Below, piece after piece: positions 43,401 to 49,400 of a stretch of DNA of 64,000 nucleotides. Source of the stretch: an uncultured Burkholderiales bacterium (GTDB taxonomy: Bacteria; Actinomycetota; Acidimicrobiia; IMCC26256; JAGPDB01). The position numbers are program-made. Location: contig CAZFAO010000006.1 in the NCBI GenBank assembly GCA_964516875.1, forward strand, positions 17,049 through 81,048, read 5' to 3'. How positions within the stretch are numbered: the first letter of the stretch is position 1; each line of letters begins with the position of its first letter.

Positions 43401-46400
43401 CCATTGCGTACTTTCGCCGGGGTCGCGATCGACTCCTCTGGCCTATGTTGCCAACCAACTTTTTGATACGACCGTGGTGATCGATGAGCGAGACGCAGGC
43501 TTTGTCGCGCTGGGAATTGCAGAATCGACGGGTCGCGCTCCCGTCGTTATTACAACGTCGGGATCAGCCCCGACGCATCTTTACCCCAGTGTTGTCGAAG
43601 CATTTCACTCAAATATTGCTTTGATCGTTATTTCGGCTGATCGTCCGCATGAGGTTCGTGGTCGTGGAGCAGCGCAGACCATCGATCAGGTCAATATGTT
43701 CAACACCAGTGTGCGGTATTTTTTCGATGCATTGTGTCCACACGATGAAAGTTCAACAGAGTATTGGGAAGAACAAGCAGACGCGCTTTTTGAACATTCG
43801 TCTGGTGGTGGGGTGCATGGTCCTGTCCATCTCAATATGGGTATGCGCGAACCTCTTGTTCCCGACGGCGACGAGGGCAGGCCAAGCCCTACAACAGAGA
43901 TAAAAAAGACCACGGCCACTTATTCTTCTCAGTTGGACCGTCGCCTCTTGTCTTCGGCAGAGACAGTGGTGGTAACACTTGGTCGCAATGCAGGCGTGGA
44001 TGAAGATTCCATGGTTTTCTTGATGGAAAATTTCATATGGCCACAACTCTCAGATGTCACAAGCAACGTTCGCTTTTTCCCCACAACAATTACGTCGTAC
44101 GATGCGATCATGCGTCGAAGTGACGCAAAAAACTTCATTCCCGACCTCATTATCCAAATCGGTGACCCTCTTACATCGAAAATCTGGAACGAGATGACAA
44201 GCGCATCACAAATAATTTCCGTGACGCGCTACGACGACGGTCGTGACCCCCATGGAAATATTTCACAGCACATCGTTGCTCGCGACATCAACAAATTCTT
44301 ACGACAACTCGCAACCATTCATCATGAACCGTCGTGTTCTTTTTTCGATGAATGGAAGTTGGCCGACACCCAAGCACTCCAAACAATCAACCATGTTTTA
44401 GACGATCATGACAACTCCGAACCTGCTCTTTTTGCAGAACTGGGAGTGGTGCTAAACAATGCGCCGCAAGCGAATGTGCTCATTGCTTCTTCTATGCCGA
44501 TTCGATATGCCGAATGGTTGTGGATACGGCCTTCGAGCAACCTCACTCTTTATTCACACCGAGGAACAAATGGAATCGATGGAATGGTGAGTTCTGCGTA
44601 CGGAATCGCTCACGGTTCATCGCTGCCGACTTTGTGTGTGACCGGTGATGTGGCATTTGCTCACGACATTGGTTTTCTCAGTGCCTTATCGCAACTGTGC
44701 GAGTCGAACAATGAATGCGTTATTTATTTTGTTGTCGATAACGGTGGTGGTGCAATCTTTCGACATATCGGAGAAGCACACGCGGCGTCGCTGGATGATT
44801 CTTATGAAAAACTGTATCAAACAAAACCTGCTGTTGATATTAAAGCAATGGCGGGGGCGTGTGGTGCGCACTATGTTTCTGGTTCGAACGAAGAGTGTGT
44901 CAATGCAGTAAAAGATATATTGGAGAAGAAAATAGCAGGTGTTCATGTTATCCACGCAAAAGTGGATCACGATTCTGGCACTGCTTTTATGAAAGCTCTT
45001 CGTGATGCCTTAGCGGGTCCGACCTCCTAGCCTTAGCGGGTCCAACCTCGTGGCCTAGCGGGTCCGACCTCGTGGAGGAAAACCTCGCAACTACATTTGT
45101 CGATCGTTTGCGAAAGATCCGTGTCAGGAGGTCGGACCCGCTAGGCCACGAGGTCGGACCCGCAAAACTACTGTGTAATGTTCATCATGGCATCGCGCAT
45201 GACGCCAAATTTCGCTTGCGTTTCATCCCACTCTTGTACAGGGTCGGACCCTGCAACAATACCCACACCAGCAAAAAGCTGCGCTTGGGTTCCGGTAACG
45301 CGCGCACATCGAAGCGCAATCGCACACTGACCATCGCCCGAAGCATCTACCCATCCCACAGGTGCACCATACATTCCACGATTAAAACCTTCGACGTCAT
45401 CAATAATCGAAATGGCGGCATCAGTCGGTGTTCCCGCGACGGCGGGCGTGGGGTGCAGAGCTGCAACAAAAGTCATAAGATCAGAATCAGTGCTCGCCGT
45501 TGCTGTCACCGATGTTGCGAGGTGGGCAACATGGGGAAGTCGAACAACATGAGGAACATCAGAGGATGTGACGTTGGTGGCAATGCGTGAAAGTTTGTCA
45601 ACAATGTCGTCAATCACCACTTGGTGTTCGTTGCGATCTTTTGAGTTGGTTTGCAAATCAGCAATATCGGCATCATCGTCATCGATGCGCGCATGGCGAC
45701 GTCGAGTTCCCGCCATGGGAAGGGAACGAATGGACCGAGATGATTTTTCAACGAGAAGTTCGGGTGACGCGCCCACAAAACTATCAACTGAAAAAATAAA
45801 ACTTTCGGGTTGCGAGTGGATGAGTTCCGTGACGAGTAGCCGTGGGTCAATTGCAACGTCTGCTGTCACGTTGAGTTGTCGAGCAATAACGACTTTCGTG
45901 ACATCGCCGATTTCGATGTGTTTTAAAACAGTTTCGACTTTGTCAATAAATTGATCGCGTGATTCGGGGCTCATCATCTCAACATGGTGCGGGTGCTCCA
46001 CGCTTTCGTGGGTTGCTGAAGCCGGCCACATCGGTTCATTTTCGCCCGATATTCTGTAATGAGTGACCCACTGATGATGGTCAATATGAATCATTTCCGA
46101 GGGAAGTGTGATGTTCGAATCCTCGATGCTGCGTTGAGAGAAAGATTGGCTAAAAATAACGAAAGGTTTTTGTTCGGGATCCTCTTCGCCTTCAAGGTCA
46201 GCCAGAACACGGACGATTTCTTGGGGCGGGTATAGCCCGAGGTTTCCCCGGCAGATATAGGTGCCACGCGACGAAATAAAAACATCATCGTGAATGCTCA
46301 CAATACTTTCAAGCGTTGTCTCTAGTCGATAGTGGTCTGTCGTGAAGCGAAAAGCTGTCATGAATTGTTTTCCTTGACAGCAATATTTTTCGTTGCACTG

Positions 46401-49400
46401 ATGAGAACGAGAGAACCACCGATGAGATCGGTAATACTGATATTTGTAGCGCCCGAATCGCTGAGCATGTCGGTCAGTATCGCTTTGCTTGGCAAATATG
46501 CGGTCGAACGGGGAAGATATTCATACGCGCTTTTATTCTTTGAGATGAGCCACCCAATCTTGGGAGCTATTTTTGCGAACCACAGCTTATTGCCCATGCG
46601 CAGCAAAGGGTTTGACGGAACAGAAACGTCGACAGCAACAAATCGTCCGCCAGGTTTGAGAACACGCATCAGTTCTGGAAAAAGTTTTGTGAGATCTACA
46701 AAATTTCTCAGCGCATAACCACATACAATTGCATCGCAACTTTCCGTTTCGAGAGGAAGGAGCGTTCCGTCGCACTGAATCCGATTTTCTCCAGGATGTG
46801 CATGTGCGAGCATTCCGAAAGAGAGATCGCACGCAATGGGCTTCATCGATTGTTGTTCAAGAAGCCGATACATGTCGCCGGTGCCGCTTGCAAGATCAAT
46901 AACGATAGAGCCAGGACGTGCGCGCAGTTCTTTGAGTGCAACTTTGCGCCCGTAATTGTCCATGCCGAGAGAAATAATGGAGTTTGCTTTTTCATACGTG
47001 GGAGCAATGTCGTCAAACATCGACCGGACCATCTCTTTTTTCTTATTCCCAACCGGAAGATCCTGCGTGGTGGTCATCTATTCTCCTTGTGCGCCAGCAA
47101 CTTCAATAATACTGGGGGAAGTGCTGACTCCGTCAATGCTGTAGGGATCGGGGAGATGATACGAGCGTCGGAGCGCGCCGATGGATATGAGAAGAGCTAA
47201 CAATATGATTCCTGAGGAAACAAAAAGAACTTTAGATCCAAAGCGCTCAAGAAAAACACTTTGCGCGATAGAGGCAATAGGGAAGAGGAACCCAAGTGTT
47301 GCCATAAATGCCGCAGACACTCGCCCTTTCAATTCGGGAGGTGCAGCGAGTTGTGCGGCAAGAGTTGTCGATGTCAAGGTTCCGAGGTACGTCACTCCAA
47401 AAAACAGTGCGACAGGTGTTGCAAAAAGTATGTTGGGCGCTACGCCAAAACAAATTAACACGAGCGGTAGTGTGCCTAGAAAGACTTGTTGTGTGCGTGT
47501 TGGCCCGTACTTAACGTGAAGGGTCGTCATGAGTACAGAGATGATGACTGCTCCCATTCCTTGCGCCGTGGTAAAAAGTGCGGTACCGAGATTTTTGTAT
47601 CGATACACTTCGTCGGCCACATTGGGAAGCAATGCAATAAAAGGACTAGCCCAAAAAATTGTTATTGCATAAACAAAATAAGGTTTTTTCATTGTTGAGT
47701 TCGATGAAAGAATAAATTTCCAACCTGCTGTCAGTGAGCTTTTTGCAGATTCGGTTTTTAGTTCGCTGCGCTCAAGCGCATTCTTTTGGAAGTCCCGTTC
47801 GTGGACAAGAAGGATCATCGCTACTACACCTAAGAAACTGACGGTGTTAACGCTGAGTGCAAGCGCATAGTGTCCTCTTAAAAGAAAGAGCGCAGCAAAC
47901 GCCGGACCAACGACACGCCCTAAGTTCCATTGAGCAAACATTAACGTTAAAGCACCAGGCACTTTGTCGTGCGGGACAATGTCGGAAATAAATGCTTGCC
48001 ATGCTGGAAAGGTGATGGCATTAAGAACGCCCGCCAGGAAAAGGAGCGAGATAACGAACCAGGGATTCGCAAAATTTTGTGCAACAGAAAGCGCGAGTGT
48101 TCCAGAAATTGTTGCGGAAAGTAAGTTCGTTGTGATGAGTACTTTTTTTCGAGGAAGTCGATCAACGATGGATCCGCTAATCAAGCCCATTAATGCCTGC
48201 GGGATAAATCCCACAGCGAGCGCAGCTGCCACAAATGAGGCATTGTGCGTGGTTGTTTGCATGTAGATACCAATGGTGACAATCTCGATCCATGTACCAA
48301 TATTCGACGTGACGGCACCAAGAAAAAGTCGTCGAAAGGGGCGGTAACTCAACGCACGGAACGAATCAATGGACTTCATGGCTTCCAGGCTACCTGTAAT
48401 GCGAATGAAATTTCGATAGGTATTTAAAGTCAAATGAGTCGTGCGGCCCATTGTGAAAACGCGTAGATAAATCGATACTGATTGTGAGGTGCGGATTATT
48501 CCGCTATTCCAAGAGGGTTCGTCTGGGCAGGTGTACGGACCCTCTTTTTGTTTGTCCGTTAGCGGGTCCGACCGTTAGCGGGTCTGACCTCGTGGAGGGA
48601 AACCTTGCAACTACATTTGTCGATCGTTTGCTAAAGATTCGTGTCAGGAGGTCAGACCCGCAAACCGACCCGCAACACGTCGCAAAGGTGCGCAAACAGG
48701 GTCGGACCCTGCAAGACTGGACCCATGCCAGAACCTGAAATTACCCCTCGTTTATATACGGGTGAATATTTAGAAGAGAACTTTTGTGACGTCGATCCGA
48801 TGGTCCGATTCAACGAATGGTTTAACAGCGCAGTCGAAAATAATGTAATCGAACCCGATGCATGCGTTCTCTCGACTTACGATGGCGACGCGGTCAACGC
48901 GCGAACGGTGGCGCTTCGCGGAGTAACAAGCACGGGTTTCTTGATCTACACCAATTATCATTCGTTCAAAGCGAACGACATGGAGAAAAACAAGCATGTG
49001 GCGCTGACATTTTATTTCCGAGAACAGTTCCGCCAAATCAGAATTCGTGGACTCGCGCACAAAACCACACCCGAACAAAGCGATGAGTATTTTGCATCAC
49101 GACCTCGCGGATCACAAGTGGGGGCCTGGGTGTCACGACAAAGCGAAGAACTTTCCTCGCGTGACGAATTAAATGCGTCCTACCAACAGTTCGAAAATGA
49201 GTTGGGAGATGTCATCGAAAGACCACCATTTTGGGGCGGTTATGAAATCGTTGCGACAGAATATGAATTCATGCAAGGCCATGAAAGTCGACTACACGAC
49301 AGATTTAGATTTGTTCTCAACCCACAGACGAAGAAATTTGATTCACAACGCCTGTGGCCATAACAAAGTCAGCGTAATCACGTGAAAGCATCAACTTGAT

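What the first reader, a model, noticed from the sequence alone, without database searches (positions are those of the whole stretch)
45011..48714. Two copies of a nested long-stem palindromic element bracket menF-menG-MFS, with a compensatory arm substitution
Copy A (45011-45163):
- It contains three direct GCGGGTCC(G/A)ACCTC units and two inverted units.
- Positions 45036-45071 pair with 45128-45163, giving about 36 bp with 1 mismatch around a 56-nt core.
- Its leftmost unit encodes the menD C-terminus (LAGPTS).

Copy B is in the same orientation. Positions 48577-48661 align to 45057-45141 with 6 differences in 85 nt.

Two of those differences are a paired change. C45065:G45134 in copy A becomes T48585:A48654 in copy B, which preserves the stem.

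The copies flank a three-gene minus-strand block. This is far more structure than a terminator needs. It resembles a MITE or REP-like element, or a structured RNA. It could also mark the boundaries of an inserted or inverted segment.
Basis: seen in the sequence. Interest (0 to 1): 0.55.

Follow-up and report, generated by a model that had tools for sequence, protein, structure and literature searches.

The report
REP-like palindromic repeats flanking menF block
The two long-stem palindromes are real copies of a small repeated hairpin element of the REP/REPIN kind that has settled at gene ends in an uncultured Acidimicrobiia-like bacterium; they are not an RNA gene and do not mark a genome rearrangement, so the finding is interesting but of a known kind.

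Summary
Copy A has three direct and two inverted units, a 36-bp stem with one mismatch and a 50-56-nt core. Copy B differs at 6 of 85 nt, including the paired change C45065:G45134 to T:A.

Six relatives (MenD 46-58% identical) keep the same order menD | menF-menG-MFS | pdxH. Three of them have menD and menF abutting or overlapping with no hairpin. So the copies are insertions into a conserved gene order, not rearrangement boundaries.

There is no Rfam match. The core is not conserved in relatives, and two of the three symmetric A/B differences do not give Watson-Crick pairs.

A third copy with the same core lies on another contig; it was read from the N-terminus of predicted protein P0121. Relatives carry their own intergenic hairpin families built on the same GGTCCG[A/T]CC arm, with 13-19 intact copies per genome, mostly next to gene 3' ends, and with matched arms and compensated stems.

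In candidate-phyla-radiation (CPR) genomes, hairpins with the same arm sit beside REP-associated tyrosine transposase (RAYT) genes. No such gene was found in the sequence available for this lineage.

Best reading: a REP/REPIN-like extragenic palindromic repeat family, a new member of a known kind.

The parts
45010..45032 (+). Copy A, unit 1 (TTAGCGGGTCCGACCTCCTAGCC). It overlaps the last 6 codons and the stop of menD.
   Evidence: (D2/D3)
45033..45054 (+). Copy A, unit 2 (outer left arm). It carries the one unpaired G-to-A change (GGTCCAACC).
45055..45074 (+). Copy A, unit 3 (inner left arm).
45075..45124 (+). Copy A core or spacer, 50 nt. It is specific to this genome's family.
45125..45146 (-). 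Copy A, inner right arm (inverted unit).
45147..45166 (-). Copy A, outer right arm (inverted unit). It ends 1 nt before the menF stop codon.
48559..48574 (+). Copy B, outer left unit (TTAGCGGGTCCGACCG).
48575..48594 (+). Copy B, inner left arm (GGTCTGACC variant).
48595..48644 (+). Copy B core, with 4 differences from the copy A core.
48645..48665 (-). Copy B, inner right arm (GGTCAGACC, matching the left-arm variant).
48666..48676 (-). Copy B, truncated outer right unit (CCGACCCGCAAC).
48696..48714 (.). Single palindrome ACAGGGTCGGACCCTGCAA of the related TTGCAGGGTC..ACCC family, 12 nt upstream of the pdxH ATG (48726).
   Evidence: (D6)
45238..45256 (.). The same 19-mer palindrome inside the menF coding sequence, encoding A-G-S-D-P-V.
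   Evidence: (D6)
30345..30370 (.). Palindrome GTACAGGGTCCGACCCTGTAC, upstream of the acetolactate-synthase-like ORF and just after a terminator-like hairpin.
13033..13091 (.). Hairpin doublet TTACAGGGTCTTACCCT..AGGGTAAGACCCTGCAA between convergent ORFs.
27179..27217 (.). Perfect hairpin doublet TTGCAGGGTCTTACCCT-5 nt-AGGGTAAGACCCTGCAA.
22509..22530 (+). Solo unit AGGAGGTCCGTCCTTCCT, the arm type that dominates in relatives, directly after the stop of ORF 21637-22512.
43339..45030 (+). menD. Its last ~5 codons are supplied by copy A.
45168..48451 (-). The menF-menG(ubiE)-MFS_3 block between the two copies.
48436..48556 (+). Conserved pdxH leader motif (promoter-like boxes, small hairpin, terminator with an invariant 12-nt loop). 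Copy B lies immediately 3' of it.

Best explanation
Copies A and B belong to a dispersed extragenic palindromic repeat family of the REP/REPIN (BIME-like) kind, in an uncultured Acidimicrobiia-like actinobacterium.

**Building block.** The unit is about 22 nt: YTAGCGGGTCCGACCTCGTGG. One to three direct units on the left and one to two inverted units on the right enclose a family-specific ~50-nt spacer. Either DNA strand, or an RNA copy of it, can fold into a very long nested hairpin.

**Shown here.**
- The element is an insertion into an otherwise conserved gene order.
- At menD/menF it took over the last ~5 codons of menD.
- At pdxH it sits between a conserved leader terminator and the start codon.
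- There are at least three copies.
- Relatives carry their own families on the same GGTCCG[A/T]CC arm, at gene 3' ends.
- In relatives the two arms always match, and stem changes are compensated almost without G-T intermediates.

**Inferred.**
- The family spreads, or once spread, as single-stranded DNA hairpins. The agent would be a RAYT-type Y1 (HUH) transposase or a comparable hairpin-recognising enzyme.
- Extra units arose by slippage between the 22-23-nt tandem units, or by one element inserting into another.
- The paired C:G to T:A change reflects upkeep of arm complementarity, or parallel CpG transitions in the two identical arms. It does not indicate an RNA function.
- Any host effect is secondary. 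The stem-loop ends up in the 3' untranslated regions of the convergent menD and menF transcripts. There it could block 3' exonucleases, stall read-through, or be cut by RNase III.
For: **Multi-copy.**
- Units and core are far above chance.
- A third copy has the same core and three inverted units. It is read from the N-terminus of P0121, on an NCBI contig of 108,585 nt.

**Insertion.**
- Gene order is identical in L003, L005, L007, L008 and L010/L011.
- menD and menF abut or overlap in L007, L008 and L010.
- L003 has only a simple 19-bp hairpin ending in the same ...GCAAA|CTACTG junction.
- The MenD C-terminus of the window departs from relatives only in its last ~5 residues.

**Family in relatives.** The pattern GGTCCGWCCTC-N30-60-GAGGWCGGACC gave:
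- 19 intact copies in GCA_964391505.1
- 13 in GCA_964561855.1
- 2 in GCA_035329685.1

All 34 are intergenic, mostly within ~20 nt of a stop codon or between convergent genes. Their left units are often doubled at a 22-24-nt period, as in copy A.

**Arm matching and compensation.**
- Among the 19 copies, 4 have A-type arms and 15 have T-type arms; none is mixed.
- In the 12 aligned hairpins, 13 of 35 pairs show double changes and only 1 cell shows a one-sided change.

**Orientation.** The asymmetric copies show no clear bias relative to flanking genes: 7 same, 4 opposite.

**Link to REPINs.**
- In 7 CPR loci, hairpins with the same arm lie directly beside genes matching Pfam Y1_Tnp (E about 3e-9). 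Their best NCBIfam hit is 'REP-associated tyrosine transposase'.
- Saccharibacteria RAYT genes picked by protein similarity alone are also flanked by hairpin doublets.
- Bertels and Rainey 2011 (PMC3116915) describe REPINs as two inverted REPs plus a spacer forming a hairpin. They report common compensatory changes, tandem arrays, and insertion next to other REPINs.
Against: **No transposase found.** No RAYT or other transposase appears in the window or in ~400 kb of relatives' loci, by tblastn or by a 124-sequence profile. The mobilising enzyme is therefore an inference.

**Copy number.** Only three copies are documented for this exact family. The source genome could not be searched: strict-pattern scans of genome contigs and metagenome contigs found nothing.

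**Unit is a weak hairpin.** A single unit (GGTC-C-GACC) folds poorly on its own, unlike classical REPs or the CPR units.

**CPR identity may be coincidence.** Other Saccharibacteria RAYT loci use different loop variants on the same GAGG-loop-CCTC scaffold, so the exact arm match could be chance.

**Core not shared.** The window core is not detectably related to the cores of relatives.

**No target-site duplication** is visible at either copy.
Confidence: 0.68

Rival explanations
1. Host-selected 3'-end structure. On this view the hairpins are functional bidirectional terminators or mRNA-stabilising stem-loops. They grew in place from a simple ancestral hairpin and were homogenised by gene conversion, with no transposition.
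For: - Copy A lies between convergent genes.
- L003 has a simple hairpin at the same junction with a similar outer arm: TTTGCAGGGCCCGGCC versus TTTGCGGGTCCGACC.
- In GCA_964561855.1 the hairpins are flanked by A-runs and T-runs and sit 6-16 nt after stop codons, like bidirectional intrinsic terminators.
Against: - Copies A and B have no U-tract on either strand.
- Three relatives manage with overlapping menD and menF and no hairpin.
- Copy B lies in a 5' region, after an existing terminator.
- The same 50-nt core recurs on another contig, upstream of an unrelated gene.
- A 36-42-bp perfect stem is far longer than terminators need.
Confidence: 0.15
2. Classical MITE. On this view the element is a deletion derivative of an insertion sequence with terminal inverted repeats, moved in trans by a DDE transposase.
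For: - It has terminal inverted repeats, is 110-160 nt long, is multi-copy and is intergenic.
- In GCA_964391505.1, copies often carry a 17-nt outer inverted repeat, GTGCGAGGTCCGTCCTC ... GAGGACGGACCTCGCAC.
Against: - No direct target duplication flanks copy A or copy B.
- No insertion sequence with these ends appears in any fetched locus.
- Tandem units on each side and strict arm complementarity are typical of REP or REPIN arrays.
Confidence: 0.1
3. Structured RNA: a small RNA or cis-regulatory element whose stem is kept by selection at the RNA level.
For: - The predicted fold is very stable.
- There is one Watson-Crick to Watson-Crick paired change.
- All six A/B differences fall on three symmetric position pairs if two registers are allowed. 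P is about 2e-4, but the registers were chosen after the fact.
Against: - No Rfam family matches.
- The element is not conserved at the same sites in relatives.
- The two core pairs change to T:T and to G:T (from A:C), not to Watson-Crick pairs.
- The core folds differ between copies.
- The contexts are unrelated: a 3' end, a 5' leader, and upstream of an unrelated gene.
- In the relatives' hairpins G-U intermediates are almost absent. In the neighbouring genuine RNA-like pdxH leader they are frequent.
Confidence: 0.05
4. Boundaries of a segment that was inserted, inverted or is excisable (menF-menG-MFS).
For: Two same-orientation copies, 93% identical over 86 nt, bracket a three-gene block.
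Against: The same block, with the same order and strands, is present in six relatives. Three of them lack any element at menD/menF, and two lack one before pdxH.
Confidence: 0.02

Closest known systems
[quoted passage not shown]
   Same: - Two inverted short units are separated by a ~50-nt, less conserved spacer, and the whole folds as a long hairpin.
- Start-to-start spacing of the inner units is 70 nt, against 71 nt for Pseudomonas GI REPINs.
- The elements are extragenic, multi-copy and genome-specific, with compensatory stem changes.
- Higher-order tandem or nested arrangements occur.
   Different: - No RAYT was found in the available sequence of this lineage.
- A single unit is a very weak hairpin on its own.
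- Units are stacked directly at a 22-23-nt period on both sides, giving nested stems.
- The host is Actinomycetota. In the papers consulted no REPIN/RAYT system was found described for that phylum.
E. coli BIMEs (mosaics of REP units in alternating orientation with defined linkers)
   Same: They are a mosaic of repeated palindromic units plus a conserved inter-unit segment. They lie at gene 3' ends and between convergent genes. They are known to stabilise upstream mRNA (my own knowledge; not tested here).
   Different: BIMEs alternate unit orientation along the array. Here all left units are direct and all right units are inverted. There is no sequence similarity.
Miniature inverted-repeat transposable elements of bacteria (Correia/NEMIS, ERIC, RUP, Nezha)
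   Same: They are short, non-coding, have terminal inverted repeats, are multi-copy and intergenic, and can overlap gene ends.
   Different: There is no target-site duplication, no parent insertion sequence, and the arms are built from tandem sub-units.
Rickettsia palindromic elements
   Same: A palindromic repeat contributes in-frame codons to a protein: MenD ...LAGPTS*, and the AGSDPV palindrome in MenF.
   Different: Here only the extreme C-terminus is affected. The MenF palindrome coincides with a conserved motif rather than being an insertion. There is no sequence relation.

Membership tests
REP/REPIN | Two REP units in inverted orientation, separated by a short spacer and able to form a hairpin | tested here: met
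   Arms 45033-45074 / 45125-45166 and 48574-48594 / 48645-48665 with 50 nt between them. Folds.
REP/REPIN | Each REP unit is itself a short imperfect palindrome | tested here: inconclusive
   The unit contains GGTC-C-GACC, only 4 bp around a single base. The CPR units with the same motif are clear hairpins, for example GTGAGAGG-TCCGT-CCTCTCAC.
REP/REPIN | Extragenic location | tested here: met
   Both copies lie between genes; only unit 1 overlaps the last 6 codons of menD. In relatives, 34 of 34 copies are intergenic.
REP/REPIN | Tens to hundreds of copies per genome | not testable with these tools
   Only the 64-kb window is readable. Two copies are here and a third was inferred on another contig. 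Relatives have 13-19 intact copies under a strict pattern.
REP/REPIN | A cognate single-copy RAYT (Y1/HUH) gene, usually flanked by the repeats | tested here: inconclusive
   None in the window or in the Acidimicrobiia loci, but the whole genomes could not be searched. RAYT genes are present next to same-arm hairpins in 7 CPR loci.
REP/REPIN | Compensatory changes that keep the hairpin | tested here: met
   C:G to T:A between copies A and B. Arm types matched in 19 of 19 copies. In relatives, 13 of 35 pairs show double changes.
MITE | Terminal inverted repeats | tested here: met
MITE | Direct target-site duplication flanking the element | tested here: not met
   The flanks are GTGATGCC / ACTACTGT for copy A and TTTGTCCG / ACGTCGCA for copy B; they share no direct repeat.
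MITE | A parent insertion sequence with the same ends | not testable with these tools
   None in the window or the fetched loci. The genome is not available.
Intrinsic (Rho-independent) terminator | A GC-rich stem-loop followed directly by a U-tract | tested here: not met
   The stems are followed by AAAACUACUG on the + strand and UAAGGCAUC on the - strand. The consensus scan reports none at the elements.
Known structured RNA family (Rfam 15) | A match to a covariance model | tested here: not met
   No hit at gathering score across the window. At E<=10 across the region, only chance microRNA and snoRNA hits appear.
Integron attC site / gene-cassette boundary | An imperfect palindrome at the 3' end of mobile cassettes, with an integrase nearby | tested here: not met
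   The block between the copies is a conserved, syntenic menaquinone operon segment in six relatives. No integrase was looked for beyond that.

The most novel reading that the evidence does not exclude
An Acidimicrobiia clade may maintain REPIN-like hairpin families without a resident RAYT. The conserved arm top, GAGG-TCCG[A/T]-CCTC, is the same one recognised by a RAYT clade that is vertically conserved in Saccharibacteria and other CPR bacteria. Cultivated Saccharibacteria are epibionts of Actinobacteria. The shared motif would then reflect cross-phylum transfer, or mobilisation in trans between epibiont and host, rather than coincidence.
Probability: 0.08. Interest if true: 0.65.

Novelty: new member of a known kind. 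Interest (0 to 1): 0.3.

Why it matters
- **Range of the phenomenon.** REP/REPIN elements have been studied almost only in Proteobacteria. A clear family in uncultured Acidimicrobiia, with sister families in relatives, would widen the known range. It would also give a system in which the transposase is not obvious.
- **Assembly.** These palindromes break short-read assemblies. Two Logan contigs end inside copy A, and a relative has a 100-N gap at the same junction.
- **Annotation.** They create false ORF starts and altered protein ends: the MenD C-terminus, the pdxH 'GTG 48641' start, and the P0121 N-terminus.
- **Interpreting covariation.** A compensatory pair inside a DNA palindrome is not evidence for an RNA gene.

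Tried and rejected
**Searches that found nothing**
- The strict hairpin pattern GCGGGTCYRACCTC-N40-70-GAGGTYRGACCCGC gave 0 hits in genome contigs and metagenome contigs. The source genome is not in those collections, so copies could not be counted directly.
- Rfam at gathering score and at E<=10 gave nothing relevant.
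- A profile of the relatives' cores does not hit the window cores. A profile of the window core hits nothing in 826 kb of loci except the same locus in another assembly. The cores are therefore family-specific spacers.
- The DNA of the third copy could not be fetched, and the cluster look-up gave no accession.
- RAYT search by motif regex, tblastn and a 124-sequence profile hit only CPR loci.
- The last protein search, with a Saccharibacteria RAYT, returned only Saccharibacteria-type homologues and none from Acidimicrobiia.
- A full-text search for the arm sequences found no relevant paper.

**Ideas considered and dropped**
- The gene between two inverted CPR copies in L052 was a candidate transposase. 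It is an L,D-transpeptidase-like protein.
- A peptide encoded by the core. The frame is open in both copies, but there are 2 synonymous and 2 non-synonymous differences, no start codon, and the gene caller used a different frame in P0121.
- Integron attC sites, CRISPR arrays and transcription-factor operators. The sequences at the same site differ between lineages.

Full report
**1. The observation**

- The 14-mer GCGGGTCCGACCTC (up to 2 mismatches) occurs eight times in the window, all within the two loci. Shuffles give 0.28 expected.
- In copy A, 45036-45071 pairs with 45128-45163 over 36 bp with one mismatch. The wider arms are 42 nt with three mismatches around 50 nt.
- Copy B (48577-48661) differs from 45057-45141 at six positions. 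Two of them, 45065 and 45134, are partners in the stem and change from C:G to T:A.
- The 48-nt core occurs only at these two places.
- Both strands, as RNA or DNA, fold into the long hairpin with z-scores of -10 to -13 for copy A and about -5.5 for copy B. The core folds differently in the two copies.
- Unit 1 supplies the last codons of MenD...RDALAGPTS*.
- Pfam confirms the genes: MenD, MenF, a UbiE/MenG methyltransferase, an MFS_3 transporter and PdxH.
- By comparison with relatives, the real pdxH start is the ATG at 48726. The GTG at 48641 lies inside copy B.

**2. Organism and synteny**

MenD has its best named relatives in Acidimicrobiia MAGs. The closest is 57-58% identical.

Loci around MenD homologues were fetched from six assemblies:

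| Locus | Source | MenD identity to the window |
|---|---|---|
| L003 | GCA_964391505.1 | 57% |
| L005 | GCA_035329685.1, 'Acidimicrobiia bacterium' | 58% |
| L007 | Logan | 51% |
| L008 | GCA_964561855.1 | 46% |
| L010 / L011 | Logan / JGI | 46% |

All have the same order and strands: menH(-) menD(+) | menF menG MFS (-) | pdxH(+) npmA-like(-) ribB-like ....

The menD/menF junction differs between them:
- In L007, L008 and L010, menD and menF overlap or are 2 nt apart, with no hairpin.
- L003 has a simple 19-bp perfect hairpin there. It ends in the same ...GCAAA|CTACTG junction as copy A.
- L005 has a 100-N assembly gap at that point.

The elements are therefore insertions into a conserved arrangement. 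The window's MenD differs from relatives only in its last ~5 residues.

**3. More copies**

The source genome is not in the searchable DNA collections. Instead, the six reading frames of copy A were joined and used as a protein query.

One protein came back, P0121 (268 aa), on an NCBI contig of 108,585 nt. Its N-terminus is MRVRPRGGKPRNYIRQSFAKDPYQEVGPATRRTRTPPRGRTR. This is the +2 frame of unit-core-inverted units, with three amino-acid changes in the core and three inverted units on the right.

This is a third copy of the same family, upstream of an unrelated gene on another contig. Its DNA could not be fetched.

**4. Related repeats in the window**

The motif TTGCAGGGTCNNACCC (up to 2 mismatches) has nine matches at five loci, against 0.29 expected:
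- hairpin doublets at 13033-13091 (between convergent ORFs) and at 27179-27217;
- single palindromes at 30345-30370, 45238-45256 and 48696-48714.

A solo unit AGGAGGTCCGTCCTTCCT follows the stop codon at 22512.

**5. Families in relatives**

The arm-only pattern GGTCCGWCCTC-N30-60-GAGGWCGGACC gave 91 stretches in the species-representative genomes. Among the Acidimicrobiia relatives:

| Genome | Intact copies |
|---|---|
| L003 genome (GCA_964391505.1) | 19 |
| L008 genome (GCA_964561855.1) | 13 |
| L005 genome (GCA_035329685.1) | 2 |

*Location.* All 34 copies are intergenic. Most lie within ~20 nt of a stop codon or between convergent genes.

*L003 genome.* The consensus is GTGCGAGGTCCGTCCTC-A7-37-nt core-GAGGACGGACCTC, followed by a tail and often a further inverted unit.
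- The left unit is frequently doubled at a 22-24-nt period, as in copy A.
- Arm variants A (GGTCCGACC) and T (GGTCCGTCC) are always matched within a copy: 4 A-type, 15 T-type, none mixed.

*L008 genome.* The copies are near-perfect 68-77-nt hairpins.
- 13 of 35 pairs show both-sided changes, and only one cell shows a one-sided (G-U type) change.
- That pattern fits a constraint on DNA complementarity better than one on RNA.

*Contrast with an RNA-like element.* The conserved pdxH leader next door shows 7 one-sided changes in 16 pairs.

*Orientation.* The asymmetric copies show no clear bias relative to co-directional flanking genes: 7 same, 4 opposite.

*Cores.* The cores of the relatives and of the window are not detectably related. 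This is as expected for REPIN spacers.

**6. Link to REP-associated transposases**

The same pattern also hit multi-copy hairpins in Saccharibacteria, Paceibacterota and other CPR MAGs.

In seven of those loci a gene with the HUH and Y..NP motifs lies directly beside, or between, the hairpins. It matches Pfam Y1_Tnp at E about 3e-9. Its best NCBIfam hit is 'REP-associated tyrosine transposase', below that model's cut-off.

Two Saccharibacteria RAYT homologues were then chosen by protein similarity alone. They sit in a conserved folD-racemase-murligase neighbourhood and are flanked by hairpin doublets, but with other loop variants such as GTGAAAGG-TTAGA-CCTCGCAC. Two things follow:
- The architecture is that of bona fide REPINs.
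- The exact arm identity between CPR and Acidimicrobiia may be coincidence within a GAGG-loop-CCTC scaffold.

No RAYT was found in the window or in about 400 kb of Acidimicrobiia loci. Whole genomes could not be searched.

**7. The compensatory change**

With the stem register alone, one symmetric pair among six differences has P = 0.17.

If a second register, the UCGCAA/UUGCGA helix of the core, is also allowed, all six differences fall on three symmetric pairs. P is then about 2e-4, but the register was chosen after the fact.

The two core pairs go from C:G to T:T and from A:C to G:T. They are not compensatory.

Judged against the third copy, the changes specific to copy B are mostly C-to-T or G-to-A, and three of four are at CpG. 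The paired change is the same C-to-T at the same position of the unit, read on each strand.

Upkeep of arm complementarity, as described for REPINs ('compensatory changes ... are common', PMC3116915), explains this without any RNA function. So do parallel hotspot transitions.

**8. Mechanism**

*Shown:*
- a multi-copy hairpin repeat;
- inserted at gene ends;
- arms kept complementary.

*Inferred:*
- propagation as single-stranded DNA hairpins by a RAYT-like Y1 transposase or another hairpin-recognising enzyme;
- unit stacking by slippage or by element-into-element insertion, as noted for REPIN clusters;
- secondary effects on the 3' ends of menD and menF mRNA.

The elements are not canonical terminators, because there is no U-tract.

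**9. Practical consequences seen here**

- Two Logan contigs end inside copy A.
- ORF callers start false ORFs in the element: 45072-45590, 48641-49363 and the P0121 N-terminus.

**10. Verdict**

- It is a new member of a known kind.
- Interest is modest.

Noticed in passing
window 48436-48556 (+); also L003 15400-15525, L007 13147-13272, L008 7233-7361, L010 12952-13076, L103, L104, L105: A conserved ~110-nt element lies immediately upstream of pdxH in 8 loci. It has promoter-like boxes (..CCCATTGT..N17..CGATAATAACT), a small hairpin (GAGGUGCGG-loop-CCGC) and a U-tailed terminator. The terminator's 12-nt loop, CUGGGCAGGUGU, is invariant. Indels are not multiples of three. Three pairs covary and there are many G-U changes. 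It has no Rfam match. It is a candidate attenuator or riboswitch-like leader, or a small RNA, for pyridoxamine-5'-phosphate oxidase.
   Followed up: partly
between the pdxH leader terminator and the pdxH start: window 48559-48714; L003 15526-15880; L008 7360-7430; L103, L104, L105: In 6 of 8 lineages a GC-rich hairpin of the form GG[TC]C[CT]G[AGT]CC sits at this same spot, with a different sequence in each lineage. L007 and L010 have none. This is either an insertion hot spot next to a terminator or a position-specific function.
   Followed up: partly
window 45238-45256 (menF coding, - strand): A 19-mer palindrome identical to the intergenic one at 48696-48714 lies in frame in menF. It encodes A-G-S-D-P-V, at the position where the L003 relative has S-G-S-D-A-L (compared by eye). 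It may be codon-level convergence, gene conversion from the repeat family, or the origin of the motif.
   Followed up: partly
L016, L019, L021, L026, L027, L054, L055, L060, L065, L071, L080, L082 (GCA_964561855.1): This hairpin family has invariant ends and a 3-6-nt block in the stem that differs between copies (TCTA, TACT, TGTT, TTTA, CGTATT ...). The block is almost always perfectly compensated on the other arm. The clustering of variable positions is unexplained.
   Followed up: partly
L032, L062, L069, L073, L089, L091, L101, L106, L107 (CPR MAGs): RAYT-like Y1 transposase genes are flanked by hairpin doublets in Saccharibacteria, Paceibacterota and Parcubacteria. In Saccharibacteria the gene sits in a conserved folD-racemase-murligase neighbourhood and has thousands of homologues; the best 120 are 59-69% identical. 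No paper in the searched library links REP or RAYT with these phyla.
   Followed up: partly
L003 985-1090, 15265-15390, 15757-15880, 19831-19970: A second repeat family in the relative, ..CAACTGAACGAACTGC..GGGGAGGGTCGCACCTTG.., has at least four copies in 21 kb. The same spacer also holds a GTCATTCCGAG..GGATCTCGAGGAATCTCC-type repeat shared with L005.
   Followed up: no
L001 end (window ~45131) and L002 end (window ~45116); L005 11598-11697: Short-read assemblies break inside copy A, and a relative has a 100-N gap at the same gene junction. Palindromes of this size are a systematic cause of contig ends.
   Followed up: yes
window 30288-30316: A terminator-like hairpin, GCCCTCCAAAATGGAGGGC followed by TTTCGCGTTT, lies in the leader of the acetolactate-synthase-like gene (start ~30392). 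It may be an ilv attenuator. A repeat-family palindrome lies just after it, mirroring the arrangement at pdxH.
   Followed up: no
window 22513-22950: An AT-rich non-coding stretch of about 440 nt follows the solo unit. It contains ACGGAC remnants and was not analysed further.
   Followed up: no
record titles of CAYMMG01 and CAZLQP01 (L013 etc.): Two MAGs titled 'uncultured Burkholderiales' carry a men operon whose MenD is closest to Acidimicrobiia MAG proteins. One shares gene order and near-identical gene lengths with an 'Acidimicrobiia bacterium' MAG. The taxonomic label is probably wrong.
   Followed up: no
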